Of a DNA stretch of 64,000 nt, positions 29,166 to 40,507 are shown piece after piece. Location: sequence record NC_105514.1, one strand, 5' to 3'. Each line of letters opens with the position of its first letter. The first letter of the stretch is position 1. The notes beneath the pieces were generated by a model that was not told the origin of the DNA, did not search any database, and saw only the letters and a program-made list of their open reading frames with translations. This DNA is from Escherichia phage JLBYU40. Made by a program: the position numbers and the translations under genes.

Positions 29166-29194
29166 TTGGTTTCCCTCTCATTAATTTATATAAA

Positions 29195-29223
29195 TATTAT
29201 AACAAGAAATAAGAGAGAAAGCA
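29195..29223 (-). promoter_or_regulatory. early promoter
   Basis: -35 TTGCTT, 17-bp spacer, -10 TATAAT; leader ATATAAATTAATGAGAGGG. Confidence 0.55.
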
Positions 29224-29232
29224 AATGAATTT

Positions 29233-29427
29233 TTAATAAAGTTTAGTCACTTCATAAACTATACTACGAGATTCTTTATTTCGTTCTATTAAATTAGTAT
29301 ATGCTTTTTCAGCTTCATTTTTAGTATTAAAGTCTATAACGTGGGAGGTATTCGCTCTATTTGATTGACTATACCAGATAACTACTAACAGTTTAAACAT
29401 AATAGTCCTTAAATTGGTGCTGGGCAC
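29233..29427 (-). CDS. hypothetical protein (start uncertain)
   Basis: 64 aa ORF; listed start overlaps a tRNA 3' end, so the internal Met near 29400 is more likely. Confidence 0.3.
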   Translation of the reverse strand: MPSTNLRTIMFKLLVVIWYSQSNRANTSHVIDFNTKNEAEKAYTNLIERNKESRSIVYEVTKLY

Positions 29428-29501
29428 AGGATTCGAACCTGCAGCGGGATTACTCCTCCTGATTACAAATCAGGTGCATTCAACCATTCTGCCAACCCAG
29501 C
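29415..29501 (-). tRNA. type II tRNA, anticodon unresolved (canonical register TGT)
   Basis: perfect acceptor, GGTTCGAATCC T-arm, CCA, ~15-nt variable arm; anticodon stem CCTGA/TCAGG with loop TTTGTAA. Confidence 0.45.
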
Positions 29502-29666
29502 AGAACCCGTTATTTCAACGGGATTTCTTTTTCAATAACAGGAGACTTATCAGTCATAACTGCCATTGCCATTTGTTGTAGAAATTCAAAGGTGAAGGCT
29601 ACACGTTCTTCACCAATCTCTACTTCTACACGTTTCTTTTGTTTGTCGATCTTGACTTTTAGGTTA

Positions 29667-29918
29667 TCAGCCATTAGATAGTACAGTACTGGTAGTTGGC
29701 AATACTACAGATGAAGCAACAGTATTTAAATGCTTTCTCCAGTCTAGGTTAAATTGTTTTCGAAACTCTTCATAAGGTTCTTCTGGATAAAAGCTAAAAC
29801 CTCCTTTCTCATCATTCAGGATAACAGTGCCGTCAGTTTGTTCGTATGCTCGGTATGTTTCTCCAATAACAATAACTCGTTTATCAGTACTTTTATTACG
29901 GAACTCAAAAACGTGCAT
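29667..29918 (-). CDS. hypothetical protein
   Basis: 83 aa ORF. Confidence 0.4.
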   Translation of the reverse strand: MHVFEFRNKSTDKRVIVIGETYRAYEQTDGTVILNDEKGGFSFYPEEPYEEFRKQFNLDWRKHLNTVASSVVLPTTSTVLSNG

Positions 29919-29934
29919 AACGTTTCCTTAAAGT

Positions 29935-30010
29935 TGGAGCGGCTAGAGGGAATCGAACCCTACTCAGCGAGGCTTGGAAGGCCTGCGGCACAACCCGTAT
30001 GCTTAACCGC
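29935..30010 (-). tRNA. tRNA-Gly (TCC)
   Basis: acceptor GCGGTTA/TAGCCGC, T-arm GGTTCGATTCC, CCA, anticodon loop CTTCCAA. Confidence 0.55.
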
Positions 30011-30018
30011 TTATTATT

Positions 30019-30094
30019 TGGCTGGAGAAGGAGGAATCGAACCTACCATTAACGGAGTCAAAGGCCGTTGTGCTAACCGTTACACTACTCTCCA
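30019..30094 (-). tRNA. tRNA-Gln (TTG)
   Basis: U1-A72 acceptor, anticodon loop CTTTGAC, CCA. Confidence 0.55.
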
Positions 30095-30100
30095 ATTATT

Positions 30101-30176
30101 TGGCTGGGATGCCACGGATCGAACGTGGAACCTTCGGAGTCAGAGGCCGACGATCTGCCAATTGATCTACATCCCA
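30101..30176 (-). tRNA. tRNA-Gln (CTG)
   Basis: U1-A72 acceptor, anticodon loop CTCTGAC, CCA; close paralog of the previous tRNA. Confidence 0.55.
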
Positions 30177-30188
30177 ATAATTTTTATT

Positions 30189-30383
30189 CTACGGAAAAAT
30201 TGTTGTTGGCTCAGATTCTTCCAAACGTTTGCCTTCATGATCTACTCGAATAACTCCGCATCCCTCGCAAATCACAACAGCACCGTAGCCTTCTTTAACT
30301 TCAGCTTCTGTAATCAAACCAGAAAGATCACCAGTATCTCTGCCCCACATATCAATGGAGCATTGTTTGCAGAAATCAGCCAT
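30189..30383 (-). CDS. hypothetical Cys-containing small protein
   Basis: 64 aa ORF. Confidence 0.4.
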   Translation of the reverse strand: MADFCKQCSIDMWGRDTGDLSGLITEAEVKEGYGAVVICEGCGVIRVDHEGKRLEESEPTTIFP

Positions 30384-30408
30384 ATTTTATTTCCTATTTA
30401 AGTTAATT

Positions 30409-30485
30409 TGGGGTGGCTAGTGGAATTCGAATCCACATAGGCCTGATTCACAATCAGGATCATTAACCAATTATGATATAGCCAC
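30409..30485 (-). tRNA. tRNA-His (GTG)
   Basis: perfect acceptor, D, anticodon (loop TTGTGAA) and T stems; discriminator C; CCA. Confidence 0.65.
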
Positions 30486-30853
30486 AATTGAAAACTCGCA
30501 GGGTTAGCGAAACCATCCTCAATTAGCATGTTCTAGAATACTAATCAAGTTATCTCCTATTGCACGCAGCTCAAGACGAGTACGAATTTTCAATTGTGGC
30601 GGCTCTCCGAAACTCTTCTACTCTAGCCTTAGCAGCTTACTCCCGAACGCATGTCGGGAAAGTCTTACTAAGAGCATCAAATAGCACCGTTACACTTTGA
30701 GCCATTGATGTATCAAGGAATAGAAGGACTTGAACCTTCATGAGTTAGACCATTTAACTCAACCGCTTTTAAGGTATATTTCTAGGAGTGGATGTTCCTA
30801 GTAAACCTATTGGGCAGTCCCGTCTACCAATTCCGGCATATTCCAAGAATTAT

Positions 30854-31105
30854 TTAAAACTTATAGCCTTCAGGAACCTTATCTTTAACACCGTCATACT
30901 TAGCCTGAATGTAGTAGTCTGGTACATGATCTTTTGGCAGATTTTTATTAGTATCATGAACCTCAGCTCTAGCTTCTTCTTCAGAATCAAAGCCACGATA
31001 CCAGATTTCACCGCCCCACCCACGTTCACTTTCAGTATACTTAACAATATGTTTCATAAGGTTTTCCTTATAAGTTGGAGGAAGGTAATGGAGTCGAACC
31101 ATCAC
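30854..31105 (-). CDS. hypothetical protein
   Basis: 83 aa ORF between tRNA blocks. Confidence 0.45.
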   Translation of the reverse strand: MMVRLHYLPPTYKENLMKHIVKYTESERGWGGEIWYRGFDSEEEARAEVHDTNKNLPKDHVPDYYIQAKYDGVKDKVPEGYKF

Positions 31106-31165
31106 CGTATCACTACAGCGGGCTAGTTTTCAAGACTAGTTGCGTACCACTACGCCCTACCTTCC
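31076..31165 (-). tRNA. tRNA-Ser (TGA), type II
   Basis: acceptor GGAAGGT/ACCTTCC, anticodon loop CTTGAAA, long variable arm, CCA. Confidence 0.55.
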
Positions 31166-31172
31166 ATTTGTT

Positions 31173-31263
31173 TGGCGGAAGAGGAGAGATTTGAACTCTC
31201 AAGCCGTTTTACCAGTCAGCCACTTTCCAAGCGGTTTTCGTCGCCAATTCGATTTGCTCTTCC
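31173..31263 (-). tRNA. tRNA-Ser (GGA), type II
   Basis: perfect acceptor, T-arm GAGAG-TTCAAAT-CTCTC, CCA, long variable arm; 4-bp anticodon stem with one G-U, loop TTGGAAA. Confidence 0.45.
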
Positions 31264-31299
31264 AATAATAAGATGATGCCTCTATCACACCAGGCAGTT

Positions 31300-31372
31300 A
31301 CGCCTCGCTGGGATTCGAACCCATTAAAACAGCTCAACCGAGATAGTAGGTTTAGTTTACTCTGACCATCAA
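31300..31372 (-). other. tRNA-like element (T-arm only)
   Basis: canonical T-arm (rc of CTGGGATTCGAACCC) in a slot between two tRNAs, but no complementary acceptor or anticodon stem found. Confidence 0.2.
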
Positions 31373-31375
31373 ATT

Positions 31376-31452
31376 TGGTGCGTGACAAGGGATTCGAACC
31401 CTCAAAACCCGACTTCTAAGGACGGTATGTATGCCAATTCCATCAATCACGC
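31376..31452 (-). tRNA. tRNA (anticodon TAG, Leu-type; short variable loop)
   Basis: good acceptor, T-arm, CCA; anticodon stem has one U-U mismatch, loop CTTAGAA. Confidence 0.4.
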
Positions 31453-31457
31453 GTATT

Positions 31458-31531
31458 TGGTGGAGAAAGAGGGAGTTGAACCCTCGTCTTCTGCGTGCAA
31501 AGCAGATGTTCTACCATTAAACTATATCCCC
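31458..31531 (-). tRNA. tRNA-Ala (TGC)
   Basis: G3-U70 pair in acceptor, anticodon stem TCTGC/GCAGA, loop TTTGCAC, CCA. Confidence 0.6.
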
Positions 31532-31769
31532 AAATTCTTTAGTTTACTAAGGCTATTAGCTCGGCGTAACTACAGCACCTTCGCTTCGAGCGGAAGTAAC
31601 CGCGTCATCTCGCAAACCCGATACACTATTCAGTTGCCGCTGAATCTAGTGGACTAATCTAGAACCTCTCCCAAATCGTAGGGATCGTGCTTTTTGGCAG
31701 CCAGTCCTAGGTCGAGCTAATACCTTAGTGAACTATGATGAGGATTTCTCCTCATCAATTTATATAAAT

Positions 31770-31798
31770 ATTATAACAAGAAATTAAGCATCAAGCAA
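31770..31798 (-). promoter_or_regulatory. early promoter driving a noncoding leader plus tRNA block
   Basis: -35 TTGCTT, 17-bp spacer, -10 TATAAT; about 200 nt without a plausible ORF before tRNA-Ala. Confidence 0.5.
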
Positions 31799-31816
31799 AT
31801 GAGTTTTTCTTGAAAT

Positions 31817-31895
31817 TGGTAGATCGCCTGGGACTCGAACCCAGAACCTTCCGATTAAAAGTCGGATGCTACTAAACCTATTGAGCTAGCGATCT
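31817..31895 (-). tRNA. tRNA-Lys (TTT)
   Basis: perfect acceptor, anticodon stem TCCGA/TCGGA, loop CTTTTAA, CCA. Confidence 0.6.
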
Positions 31896-32084
31896 ATTAA
31901 TAACTATTGTATACTTCTTTAATAGAGTGAACTTTCAAGTAAGGGTGATTAGTACTAAACTCTATCATTACTTCATCCCAATTTTTACCATAATGAGCAA
32001 GTAAGGATTTTGATGTATTCTTACCTAAACGTTTGTCACTTACTACTAATCGAAATACTTTCATTTCGAAATCCTCTATTAAAG

Positions 32085-32162
32085 TGGAAGCGGGTGCAGG
32101 AATCGAACCTACCTCTTTCTAGCTTATGAGACTAGCGATCTCTACCAGAGATCTAACCCGCA
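32085..32162 (-). tRNA. tRNA (anticodon CAT; Met, fMet or Ile2)
   Basis: unpaired 1-72 (U-U), D-stem GATC/GATC, anticodon loop CTCATAA, CCA. Confidence 0.45.
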
Positions 32163-32168
32163 ATTGTT

Positions 32169-32246
32169 TGGTCTCCGTGGGAGGATTTGAACCCCCGACC
32201 CTATCGCCCCAAACGAAACGCTCTGGCCAAACTGAGCTACACGGAG
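32169..32246 (-). tRNA. tRNA-Pro (TGG)
   Basis: perfect acceptor, D-arm GCTC/GAGC, anticodon loop TTTGGGG (stem with one U-U), CCA. Confidence 0.5.
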
Positions 32247-32619
32247 AATATTATTTCTTTAACCACAGCAAAGATAAGCCCAGCATACTAAAACCGCTAA
32301 CTAATCCGATACATTTTTCTTCTATAGTAAAAGTATCTAGATTAAATGCTGTTATAGCTATTGGCATACACCATAATGCCATAAAAACTTGAGATATCTT
32401 GTGTTTCATTTTGCTTTCCTTCTCTTCACTTTATAAAATATATTATACAGATAATAAAGCAGAATAGCAAATGAATTTTTAATAAATTTACTTATTGTGT
32501 AGGCCACCTGGAGGCTACCAACCCCACGGCTGACAAAGAAGTTTGCGAGACCTCTCTTAAATGCCAGAATAGACCCGCCGGTCTATCGGAACCTACATAA
32601 TAAGTAAACTTTATAGTGT

Positions 32620-32740
32620 CATTCTAGACAGGACTCGAACCTGTTATCACTTGTGCGGACTTACGAGAACCATTCTTTCACTCGAATCGAACGAGCTTCT
32701 GCCCCCGCCAAGCTGGTTTCCCCATCAACCACGCTAGAAT
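32620..32740 (-). other. oversized tRNA-like element (~120 nt)
   Basis: canonical T-arm (rc of ACAGGACTCGAACCTGT) but the only complementary acceptor partner lies ~115 nt away; no CCA. Confidence 0.2.
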
Positions 32741-32862
32741 GTTTGATTGTTTTCAGTGCAAGAGTCCGAGTCTTGGACACGACCGCTTCGCAAGTACATA
32801 GGCGGCTTATCATGAGTCAGCACTTCCGAATTGCTAGCTTCGTGTTCTGCACTGAAATTTTG

Positions 32863-36148: not shown

Positions 36149-36226
36149 TGGTGGCTCCCCGAGGATTCGAACCTACGTACCTTCCGGTTATGAGCCGGGT
36201 GCTCATACCATATGAGCTTGAGAACC
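36149..36226 (-). tRNA. tRNA (anticodon CAT; Met, fMet or Ile2)
   Basis: acceptor with two G-U pairs, D-arm GCTC/GAGC, anticodon loop CTCATAA, CCA. Confidence 0.5.
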
Positions 36227-40435: not shown

Positions 40436-40507
40436 TACCGACCGTAGGATTCGAACCTACATCTTCCACCAGTTACGGCTTGATAATACCAATTATACTA
40501 GGACGGC
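40436..40507 (-). tRNA. tRNA, anticodon unresolved
   Basis: perfect T-arm, acceptor with one U-U mismatch, no encoded CCA; no convincing anticodon stem by eye. Confidence 0.3.

What the first reader, a model, noticed from the sequence alone, without database searches (positions are those of the whole stretch)
30490..30790. 300-bp structured spacer in the tRNA cluster with a T-arm-like hairpin but no tRNA
Seen: no ORF of 60 aa or more and no tRNA that folds, yet it carries a 5-bp hairpin CCCGAACGCATGTCGGG (30641-30657) and a perfect T-arm-like hairpin (rc of GAAGGACTTGAACCTTC near 30725-30741) whose flanks cannot form an acceptor stem. Inference: a small stable RNA, processing signal or tRNA remnant.
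Basis: seen in the sequence. Interest (0 to 1): 0.5.

Follow-up and report, generated by a model that had tools for sequence, protein, structure and literature searches.

The report
Three known T5 stable tRNA-like RNAs
The "empty" spacer in this T5-like phage's tRNA cluster holds the counterparts of three small stable RNAs already annotated in phage T5 (RNA1, RNAI and RNAIII), one of them a tRNA-shaped molecule with no anticodon, and nobody yet knows what they do.

Summary
The window is a T5-like phage (Demerecviridae). The flagged spacer is real but is not an orphan. On the minus strand it holds the orthologues of three RNAs that the T5 RefSeq record annotates as "stable RNA with unknown functions". 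They are RNA1 (30847-30704, tRNA-like), RNAI (30703-30597) and RNAIII (30592-30487), which abuts tRNA-His.

RNA1 is a type II tRNA cloverleaf. Its D and T blocks are identical to E. coli tRNA-Leu(CAG). A 57-nt arm replaces the anticodon stem-loop, and no CCA is encoded. Covariation supports the fold: 27 distinct sequences, 96% of cells paired, 15 of 36 pairs changed on both sides.

RNAIII sits in a slot that holds at least seven length classes of sequence (only partly compared with one another) in relatives. All keep a 15-16-bp closing stem, except a 33-nt class with 9 bp.

A published T5 deletion removes all three RNAs and the phage remains viable. Verdict: already known, function unknown. 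My best functional guess is tRNA-mimic decoys, held at low confidence.

The parts
30704..30847 (-). RNA1 orthologue: a 144-nt tRNA-like stable RNA. It is a type II tRNA cloverleaf with no anticodon loop and no encoded CCA.
   Evidence: 94.4% identical to T5 rna1/T5s03. ARAGORN -i calls 30715-30845. Covariation on 27 distinct sequences.
30839..30844 (-). RNA1 acceptor stem, 5' strand (GGAAUA).
   Evidence: Pairs with 30717-30722. 5 of the 7 acceptor pairs changed on both sides among relatives.
30762..30818 (-). RNA1 extended arm (57 nt) in place of the anticodon stem-loop. It has a basal 5-bp stem, a middle 3-4-bp stem and an apical 5-6-bp stem. The apical loop ACAUCCAC lies at 30788-30795.
   Evidence: Helices 3-5 have 9 pairs changed on both sides. 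The loop is identical in 26 of 27 distinct sequences; the T5 RefSeq copy has ACAUCCGC.
30742..30760 (-). RNA1 long variable arm (6-bp stem, 7-nt loop), the mark of a type II tRNA.
   Evidence: 100% of cells paired. Pair 93/105 occurs as A-U, U-A and C-G.
30717..30739 (-).
   Evidence: The GGTTCAAGTCC block is identical to E. coli tRNA-Leu(CAG).
30597..30703 (-). RNAI orthologue: a 107-nt rod-like RNA. Its ends form 5' GGCUC...GAGCC-G-CCA 3'.
   Evidence: 91.6% identical to T5 rnaI/T5s02. The terminal stem and apical hairpin covary between the A-type, B-type and DU_PP_V variants. Inner stems are compatible but barely vary.
30593..30596 (-). 4-nt spacer CAAU between the CCA end of RNAI and RNAIII. 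It is part of the conserved CAAUUG motif.
30487..30592 (-). RNAIII orthologue: 106 nt, with a 12-15-bp closing stem around three hairpins. It occupies a slot that is hypervariable among relatives.
   Evidence: 100% identical to T5 rnaIII/T5s01. Fold z-score -2.85. Closing stem covaries across cassette types. 90-100% conserved wherever this type is present (95-100% in all but one locus).
30409..30485 (-). tRNA-His(GUG), the downstream neighbour. Its 5' end sets the 3' end of RNAIII.
30854..31057 (-). Upstream small ORF (67 aa, phrog_14410, unknown function). Its stop codon lies 6 nt before RNA1.

Best explanation
The spacer encodes, on the minus strand, the orthologues of the three bacteriophage T5 stable RNAs RNA1, RNAI and RNAIII.

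Shown here:
- Sequence orthology and synteny with the T5 annotation.
- RNA1 is a type II tRNA cloverleaf. It keeps U8, the G18G19-type D loop, a long variable arm and a canonical T arm. Its D and T blocks are identical to host tRNA-Leu(CAG). A 57-nt three-helix arm capped by a near-invariant loop ACAUCCAC replaces the anticodon stem-loop. It encodes no CCA, so it cannot decode.
- RNAI is a rod with a 5-bp acceptor-like stem and an encoded GCCA end.
- RNAIII is a multi-hairpin RNA closed by a long stem.

Inferred from the anatomy and from established knowledge of E. coli tRNA processing:
- The three RNAs are co-transcribed with the flanking tRNAs. No promoter-like site was found immediately upstream of RNA1.
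- They are released by the tRNA-maturation machinery. RNase P cutting at the 5' ends of RNAI and tRNA-His would create the 3' ends of RNA1 and RNAIII. Exonucleases would trim RNAI back to CCA. RNase III may act on the roughly 20-bp helix formed by the RNAIII closing stem plus the flanking CCAC/GUGG.
- The paired termini would make the products stable.

Functional guess (inference only, roughly 0.25): they act in trans as non-decoding tRNA mimics. They would occupy or divert a tRNA-recognising host factor such as a tRNA-targeting defence nuclease or an acceptor-end-modifying toxin. This would extend the anti-defence role already shown for T5 tRNA-Lys and tRNA-Tyr.

The confidence given below is for identity and biogenesis, not for the function.
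For: Identity:
- NC_005859 annotates rna1 30501-30644, rnaI 30394-30500 and rnaIII 30284-30389 as stable RNAs, directly upstream of tRNA-His.
- The window copies align end to end at 94.4%, 91.6% and 100% identity.

RNA1 fold:
- ARAGORN -i finds the 131-135-nt element in the window and in all 15 relatives fetched at that stage (L001-L015).
- 96.4% of cells are paired and 15 of 36 pairs changed on both sides, against 1-4 in slid controls. 0 of 500 shuffles reached this. RNAalifold agrees independently, except that it draws a different, longer D-region stem.

tRNA-Leu likeness:
- 15-nt and 11-nt blocks are identical to E. coli leuV.
- The best pairwise matches are type II Ser and Leu tRNAs.

RNAI:
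- The termini GGCUC/GAGCC-GCCA are conserved and become GGGCC/GGCUC in DU_PP_V.
- The apical hairpin has pairs changed on both sides.

RNAIII slot:
- The closing stem is 95.3% paired, with 10 of 16 pairs changed on both sides.

Strand: folding is strand-specific for RNAI and RNAIII.

Conservation:
- About 490-500 Demerecviridae records hold RNA1, including Sugarlandvirus and Hongcheonvirus.
- RNAIII is 90-100% identical wherever its type is present (95-100% in all but one locus), similar to tRNA-His. Flanking ORFs are 81-100% identical.

Context:
- T5 tRNA-Lys neutralises PARIS, and T5 tRNA-Tyr counters retron Eco7 (PMC11464382).
- No sigma-70-like site lies just upstream of RNA1.
Against: - No transcript data were available for this phage. 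'Stable RNA' rests on the annotation of the T5 record, and the ends are transferred by alignment.
- The inner helices of RNAI vary too little within its type to test (1 pair changed on both sides; shuffles do as well).
- The inner hairpins of RNAIII are invariant, so they are untested.
- Nothing here bears directly on function.
- The T5-123 deletion (29191-32442) removes all three RNAs and the phage is viable. Plasmid fragments of that deletion other than the tRNA-Lys fragment did not rescue PARIS sensitivity. The RNAs are therefore dispensable in the laboratory and are not the PARIS suppressor.
- The annotated 5' end of RNA1 lies 3 nt upstream of the first G-C pair of the acceptor stem (2 nt upstream of the mismatched U·U that would complete a 7-pair stem), which is not where RNase P would be expected to cut.
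Confidence: 0.88

Rival explanations
1. Passive processing spacers. The three segments matter only in cis. Their closing stems insulate neighbouring tRNAs from misfolding and present RNase P or RNase III sites. The excised pieces are merely long-lived by-products with no role in trans.
For: - Boundaries abut exactly: RNA1 with RNAI, and RNAIII with tRNA-His.
- Across the RNAIII slot the only shared feature among seven length classes (33-148 nt) is the closing stem.
- One relative (L030) has only a 33-nt hairpin there.
- The region is dispensable in T5-123.
Against: - The interior of RNAIII is 90-100% identical wherever this type is present (95-100% in all but one locus), as conserved as tRNA-His and more than the flanking ORFs.
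- The internal arms of RNA1 covary, and its apical loop is nearly invariant across three taxa of Demerecviridae.
- RNA1 keeps the full tertiary-interaction set of a tRNA, which a spacer does not need.
Confidence: 0.25
2. RNA1 is an intron-containing tRNA-Leu(UAA) gene. A 40-nt intervening sequence is removed to give a working tRNA.
For: - ARAGORN -i reports tRNA-Leu(taa) with a 40-nt intron at position 33.
- In the window and in T5 the seven bases before the 3' strand of the basal stem read CUUAAAA, a plausible anticodon loop.
Against: - In all 13 fetched relatives other than T5 (L001, L002, L004-L015), ARAGORN calls Phe(aaa) instead, with a 41-nt intron at shifting positions (35-37).
- In most relatives the corresponding bases are CGAAAAC or UCAUAAA, with no conserved U33 or anticodon.
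- No CCA is encoded, unlike the neighbouring tRNAs inspected (His, Gly, Ser, Gln, Thr).
- Rfam finds no group I intron.
- T5 annotates the unspliced 144-nt species as the stable product.
- The 'intron' helices covary as part of the mature fold.
Confidence: 0.03
3. Trans-acting base-pairing regulator. The invariant RNA1 loop ACAUCCAC (or loops of RNAI and RNAIII) pairs with phage or host mRNAs.
For: The loop is nearly invariant while its stem changes by compensation.
Against: - The complement GTGGATGT occurs 3 times in the window against 1.26 expected, and 14 of 100 shuffles do as well.
- One of the three is the locus itself, and all lie on the plus strand.
- Eight bases are too few to identify a target. 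Host targets were not searched.
Confidence: 0.1
4. Decaying tRNA pseudogenes, or unannotated small protein genes. Several GenBank records place 'hypothetical protein' CDSs over this stretch.
For: - Relatives carry CDS annotations over the homologous DNA, for example AKM_ECS, SuperGirl, Sugarland and DU_PP_V.
- The tRNA match in Rfam is below gathering score (23.9 against 29 bits).
Against: - No ORF of 60 aa or more is present.
- RNAI variants differ by a 7-nt indel.
- Substitutions are compensatory in helices.
- Folding of RNAI and RNAIII is specific to the tRNA strand.
- The sequence is conserved across about 500 genomes.
Confidence: 0.02

Closest known systems
Bacteriophage T5 stable RNAs RNA1 (T5s03), RNAI (T5s02) and RNAIII (T5s01), NC_005859/AY543070
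   Same: Same order, strand and neighbours: small ORF, RNA1, RNAI, RNAIII, tRNA-His. Identities are 94.4%, 91.6% and 100%. Lengths are the same: 144, 107 and 106 nt.
   Different: Only point substitutions, for example the RNA1 loop ACAUCCAC here against ACAUCCGC in the T5 RefSeq strain. Some are compensatory, as in the variable arm UUA/UAA against AUA/UAU. Most other records of relatives seen here leave the stretch unannotated or label it as a hypothetical protein.
Bacteriophage T4 rnaC (species 1) and rnaD (species 2) stable RNAs
   Same: Small stable RNAs of about 120-140 nt encoded inside a phage tRNA cluster next to a tRNA gene. rnaC also carries a canonical T arm and long arms. Their roles are likewise unknown (PMC3014915, PMC9697503).
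   Different: No detectable sequence similarity to RNA1, RNAI or RNAIII (z between -0.4 and 1.1). They come from a different phage family, and the arrangement of arms differs.
Canonical type II tRNA (tRNA-Leu / tRNA-Ser), Rfam RF00005
   Same: Acceptor stem, 3-bp D stem with a GGAAUUGGUAGAC loop, long variable arm and a GGUUCAAGUCC T arm. The D and T blocks are identical to E. coli tRNA-Leu(CAG).
   Different: No 7-nt anticodon loop and no conserved anticodon. No CCA and no usable discriminator. A U·U pair sits at the top of the acceptor stem. The Rfam score is below gathering (23.9 against 29 bits).
Phage-encoded tRNAs that counter tRNA-cleaving immunity (T5 tRNA-Lys against PARIS, T5 tRNA-Tyr against retron Eco7)
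   Same: Same gene cluster and same dispensable accessory character. They are tRNA-shaped molecules whose anticodon arm differs from that of the host tRNA (PMC11464382).
   Different: Those are functional, decoding replacements for a cleaved host tRNA. RNA1 cannot decode, so it could act only as a mimic or sponge. No defence system is known to be affected, and PARIS is not.

Membership tests
T5 stable RNAs RNA1 / RNAI / RNAIII | Sequence orthology to the annotated T5 genes over their full length | tested here: met
   94.4% (144/144 nt aligned), 91.6% (107/107) and 100% (106/106). Gap-free alignment across all three RNAs; the only gaps lie in the flanks, upstream of RNA1 and at the alignment's 3' edge.
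T5 stable RNAs RNA1 / RNAI / RNAIII | Synteny: between the small ORF (T5.063 homologue) and tRNA-His, on the tRNA strand | tested here: met
T5 stable RNAs RNA1 / RNAI / RNAIII | Accumulate as discrete stable transcripts in infected cells | not testable with these tools
   Rests on the annotation of NC_005859. No expression data are available here.
Canonical tRNA (RF00005) | Cloverleaf with acceptor, D and T arms supported by covariation | tested here: met
   Acceptor: 5 of 7 pairs changed on both sides. D stem 98.8% paired, T stem 100% paired.
Canonical tRNA (RF00005) | 5-bp anticodon stem with a 7-nt loop, U33 and a conserved anticodon | tested here: not met
   A 57-nt arm sits at that position. 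ARAGORN's anticodon call switches between taa and aaa among relatives.
Canonical tRNA (RF00005) | 3' discriminator plus CCA (encoded in the neighbouring tRNAs inspected) | tested here: not met
   The acceptor 3' strand of RNA1 is followed by UUGAUACAUCAAU. RNAI, by contrast, does end in GCCA.
Canonical tRNA (RF00005) | Rfam gathering score | tested here: not met
   23.9 bits against 29, and only for 30715-30783.
Intron-containing bacterial or phage tRNA (group I intron in the anticodon loop) | Group I intron fold, and an intact anticodon loop once the insert is removed | tested here: not met
   No intron family at E up to 10. The insert is 40-41 nt. The residual loop is not conserved.
tmRNA | tRNA-like domain plus a tag reading frame | tested here: not met
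   ARAGORN reports no tmRNA in the window. Rfam reports none.
T4 rnaC / rnaD | Sequence homology | tested here: not met
   Local alignment z-scores of -0.4 to 1.1 for RNA1, RNAI and RNAIII. They are analogues by position and shape only.

The most novel reading that the evidence does not exclude
The three RNAs are a modular array of tRNA-shaped decoys directed against tRNA-targeting host immunity.
- RNA1 copies the elbow of host tRNA-Leu exactly but offers no anticodon loop or CCA to attack.
- RNAI presents a free GCCA acceptor end on a rod.
- The RNAIII position is a hot-swappable cassette site, framed by the CAAUUG palindrome, in which unrelated structured RNAs are exchanged between phages in an arms race.

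If so, this would be the non-decoding RNA counterpart of the T5 anti-PARIS and anti-retron tRNAs.
Probability: 0.2. Interest if true: 0.75.

Novelty: already known. Interest (0 to 1): 0.33.

Why it matters
The feature itself is not new. T5 RNA1, RNAI and RNAIII are annotated in the T5 reference genome as stable RNAs.

Two things make it more than routine. First, their function is still annotated as unknown in the T5 reference record, like that of T4 RNAC and RNAD, and I found no paper assigning one. Meanwhile the T5 tRNA cluster has recently been shown to be an anti-defence arsenal. Second, almost every one of the roughly 500 related genomes in the phage collection carries RNA1. Among the records listed, only the T5 RefSeq entry annotates it. 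The others leave it blank or place a hypothetical protein over it.

The covariation-backed fold of RNA1, its identity to the host tRNA-Leu elbow, and the cassette-like RNAIII slot give concrete handles for experiments and for correcting annotations.

Tried and rejected
- Rfam at gathering score and at E up to 10 found only tRNA-His, a sub-threshold tRNA hit on the RNA1 T-arm half, and noise (an antisense 'Plastid-ycf2' match on tRNA-His and two snoRNA models).
- Spliced tRNA-Leu: rejected. The anticodon is inconsistent among relatives, there is no CCA, and the insert helices covary.
- Coding: rejected. There are no ORFs of 60 aa or more, a 7-nt indel separates the RNAI variants, and substitutions are compensatory.
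- Target search for the RNA1 loop complement in the window: no enrichment.
- blastn of RNA1 against 5,426 E. coli genomes found no match at E up to 10, because the database is too large for 15-nt blocks. I replaced this with a direct comparison to leuV.
- Homology to T4 rnaC and rnaD, and paralogy among the six T5-type stable RNAs: none beyond the shared T arm (RNA1 against RNA2, z 4.3).
- Covariation within A-type RNAI: inconclusive because there is too little variation.
- Searches seeded with Sugarland and DU_PP_V sequences did not reach beyond Demerecviridae.
- Literature searches for T5 stable RNAs in the held library found nothing on their function. A 1986 NAR paper on T5 tRNA genes is not held.
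- Flanking small ORFs belong to phrog_2210 and phrog_14410, both of unknown function, with no significant Pfam domain.

Full report
**What the window is.** The stretch around the finding matches about 450-500 records of T5-like phages (Demerecviridae). The closest is Escherichia phage phiAPCEc03 at 97.9%, and T5 itself matches at 95.6%. All tRNA genes of the cluster lie on the minus strand.

**Checking the observation.**
- Both hairpins are present, 1-2 nt away from the stated coordinates. CCCGAACGCATGTCGGG is at 30642-30658 and GAAGGACTTGAACCTTC is at 30723-30739.
- No ORF of 60 aa or more lies within 30490-30790.
- Default ARAGORN and Rfam at gathering score call nothing there.
- A permissive Rfam scan (E up to 10) adds only a sub-threshold tRNA hit at 30715-30783 (23.9 bits against 29) and noise.
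- The claim that the flanks of the T-arm hairpin cannot form an acceptor stem is wrong. Read on the minus strand, the T arm GAAGG-UUCAAGU-CCUUC is followed by UAUUCC.

**What it is.** The T5 RefSeq record NC_005859 annotates the homologous DNA as three misc_RNA genes on the tRNA strand, lying between ORF T5.063 and tRNA-His:
- rna1, 'RNA1, tRNA-like stable RNA with unknown functions' (144 nt)
- rnaI, 'RNAI' (107 nt)
- rnaIII, 'RNAIII' (106 nt)

Alignment transfers these to the window as follows:
- RNA1: 30847-30704, 94.4% identity
- RNAI: 30703-30597, 91.6% identity
- RNAIII: 30592-30487, 100% identity

RNAIII is followed by tRNA-His at 30485-30409. The other three T5 stable RNAs are also present in the window: RNA2H at 31722-31551, RNAIV at 32598-32496, and the tRNA-like RNA2 at 32741-32617. 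It is three RNAs, not one.

**RNA1.** ARAGORN -i detects the same 131-135-nt element in all 15 relatives first fetched. However, its anticodon call changes (taa in T5-type phages, aaa elsewhere) and the 'intron' position shifts.

I collected homologues from annotated records and from an IMG/VR pattern scan. This gave 27 distinct sequences spanning Tequintavirus, Epseptimavirus, Sugarlandvirus (Klebsiella) and Hongcheonvirus (Pectobacterium). I then counted pairs on a cloverleaf that I wrote down from the window sequence:
- 96.4% of cells pair.
- 15 of 36 pairs have changes on both sides, against 1-4 when the 3' partners are slid.
- No shuffle out of 500 reaches the observed values.
- RNAalifold independently returns the same helices, except that it draws a different, longer stem in the D region.

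The molecule has these parts:
- An acceptor stem, topped by a conserved U·U.
- U8 and a 3-bp D stem with loop GGAAUUGGUAGAC.
- A 57-nt arm where the anticodon stem-loop should be. It has basal, middle and apical helices, all with compensatory changes. The apical loop ACAUCCAC is identical in 26 of 27 sequences.
- A 6-bp variable arm and a canonical T arm.

A 15-nt D block and an 11-nt T block are identical to E. coli K-12 tRNA-Leu(CAG). The closest tRNAs overall are type II Ser and Leu species. The neighbouring tRNAs I inspected by eye (His, Gly, Ser, Gln, Thr) encode CCA, but RNA1 does not.

Several things rule out a spliced tRNA. The bases that would form the anticodon loop after 'splicing' are not conserved. 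Rfam finds no intron family. T5 lists the unspliced 144-nt species as the stable product. RNA1 is therefore a tRNA-shaped RNA that cannot decode.

**RNAI.** It starts at GGCUC and ends GAGCC-G-CCA, which is an acceptor-like stem with an encoded CCA. Relatives carry two versions of the interior, 107 nt (A-type, as here) and 100 nt (B-type), with identical ends. Pectobacterium phage DU_PP_V changes the terminal stem by compensation to GGGCC/GGCUC.

It is CCCGA/UCGGG in A-type and CCUGG/CCAGG in B-type, with pairs changed on both sides. Within A-type the full rod is 95.6% paired, but it varies too little to test.

**RNAIII and its slot.** RNAIII folds into a 12-15-bp closing stem around three hairpins, with a z-score of -2.85. 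In relatives, the interval between the CCA of RNAI and tRNA-His always begins CAAUUGA and ends UCAAUU. Between those ends it holds sequences of 33, 68, 111, 122, 126, 138 or 148 nt that look largely dissimilar; I did not compare them systematically, and the 33-nt form appears to derive from the 68-nt type and the 122-nt form to be homologous to the 126-nt type.

The first 17 and last 16 nt of eight types and subtypes form a 15-16-bp helix. In that helix 95.3% of cells pair and 10 of 16 pairs changed on both sides, against 0-3 in slid controls. With the flanking CCAC (end of RNAI) and GUGG (start of tRNA-His), the helix reaches about 20 bp.

Where the T5-type cassette is present it is 90-100% identical to the window (95-100% in all but one locus), like tRNA-His at 100%. 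In the same loci RNA1 ranges over 74-100%, RNAI over 70-100% and the flanking ORFs over 81-100%. The three modules assort independently. The interior is therefore not free to drift, which argues against a purely passive spacer.

**Strand and transcription.** RNAI and RNAIII fold significantly better than shuffles only on the minus strand: -2.17 and -2.85, against -0.28 and +0.10. No sigma-70-like site lies immediately upstream of RNA1, which begins 6 nt after the stop codon of a 67-aa ORF. The RNAs are therefore most simply parts of the polycistronic tRNA transcript.

**How it most likely works.**
- Shown: identity with the T5 RNAs, the folds, the abutting boundaries and the paired termini.
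- Inferred from established E. coli tRNA processing: RNase P cleaves at the 5' ends of RNAI and tRNA-His. RNAI is a hairpin with 3' RCCA, like known minimal RNase P substrates and p4.5S RNA. These cuts define the 3' ends of RNA1 and RNAIII. RNAI is trimmed to CCA. RNase III may cut the 20-bp helix.
- Function: nothing here tests it. The T5-123 deletion 29191-32442 removes all three RNAs and is viable. The non-tRNA-Lys fragments of that deletion did not rescue PARIS sensitivity (PMC11464382). The RNAs are thus accessory and are not the PARIS suppressor.

The same cluster supplies anti-PARIS tRNA-Lys and anti-retron tRNA-Tyr. RNA1 reproduces the host tRNA-Leu elbow while lacking the parts that nucleases and synthetases act on. 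I therefore favour tRNA-mimic decoys, at about 0.25. Passive processing elements come next at about 0.25, then a base-pairing regulator at about 0.1. The rest is unassigned.

**Comparison with what is known.**
- Membership in the T5 RNA1, RNAI and RNAIII genes is met by sequence and synteny. Expression cannot be tested here.
- RNA1 is not a canonical tRNA. The anticodon loop, CCA and Rfam threshold criteria all fail.
- It is not an intron-containing tRNA and not a tmRNA.
- The nearest analogues outside the family are T4 rnaC and rnaD. These are small stable RNAs in the T4 tRNA cluster with unknown roles (PMC3014915, PMC9697503). They show no sequence similarity to the T5-type RNAs.

**Verdict.** Interest is modest. 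It rests on the decades-old open question of what these RNAs do, on their near-universal non-annotation in relatives, and on the cassette-like RNAIII slot.

Noticed in passing
window 31551-31722, 32496-32598, 32617-32741 (minus strand): Orthologues of the other three T5 stable RNAs are present: RNA2H (97.7%), RNAIV (97.1%) and the tRNA-like RNA2 (96.0%). All have paired 5' and 3' termini. Like RNA1, RNA2 has a canonical T arm and an over-long arm at the anticodon position.
   Followed up: partly
window 29415-29501 (minus strand): The tRNA-Thr(UGU) here is 87 nt, with what looks like a long, type II-like variable arm. It aligns poorly with the 75-nt T5 tRNA-Thr at the same position. A Thr anticodon on a long-variable-arm body is unusual.
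   Followed up: partly
window 29935-30010 and 31173-31263 (minus strand): Two tRNA genes annotated in T5 and PSa2, tRNA-Gly(UCC) and tRNA-Ser(GGA), are missed by default ARAGORN and by Rfam at gathering score. They appear only with lowered ARAGORN thresholds. Conversely, Rfam calls tRNAs at 36152-36226 and 40436-40507 that ARAGORN does not.
   Followed up: partly
window 31266-31375 (minus strand): This 110-nt gap lies between tRNA-Ser(GGA) and tRNA-Leu(UAG), where T5 carries the HNH endonuclease gene hegC. It contains a perfect T-arm-like GGGTTCGAATCCC but no callable tRNA. It could be a tRNA remnant or another small RNA.
   Followed up: no
L008, L012, L013, L026 (relatives), between RNA1 and RNAI: Some Epseptimavirus genomes carry an extra module of about 115-130 nt inserted between RNA1 and RNAI. 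It begins with a small hairpin and the sequence TATAAAT. This may be a further small RNA or an internal promoter.
   Followed up: no
relatives: AKM_ECS (L009), SuperGirl (L011), Sugarland (L006), K7_rec13 (L014), DU_PP_V (L045): GenBank and RefSeq records place 'hypothetical protein' CDSs over the RNA1, RNAI or RNAIII homologues. Given the covariation, these are probably mis-annotations. Among the records listed, only NC_005859 labels the RNAs.
   Followed up: partly
window 30411-30485 (plus strand): Rfam 'Plastid-ycf2 5'UTR' matches the antisense of tRNA-His at 27.3 bits, far below its 65.7-bit gathering score. This is a spurious antisense-tRNA hit.
   Followed up: yes
window 30189-30383 (minus strand): The 64-aa ORF just downstream of tRNA-His has two CxxC pairs, so it is zinc-ribbon-like. 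It belongs to phrog_2210 (unknown function) and is noted in one record as conserved in FelixO1-like phages. It is a small conserved protein embedded in tRNA clusters.
   Followed up: partly
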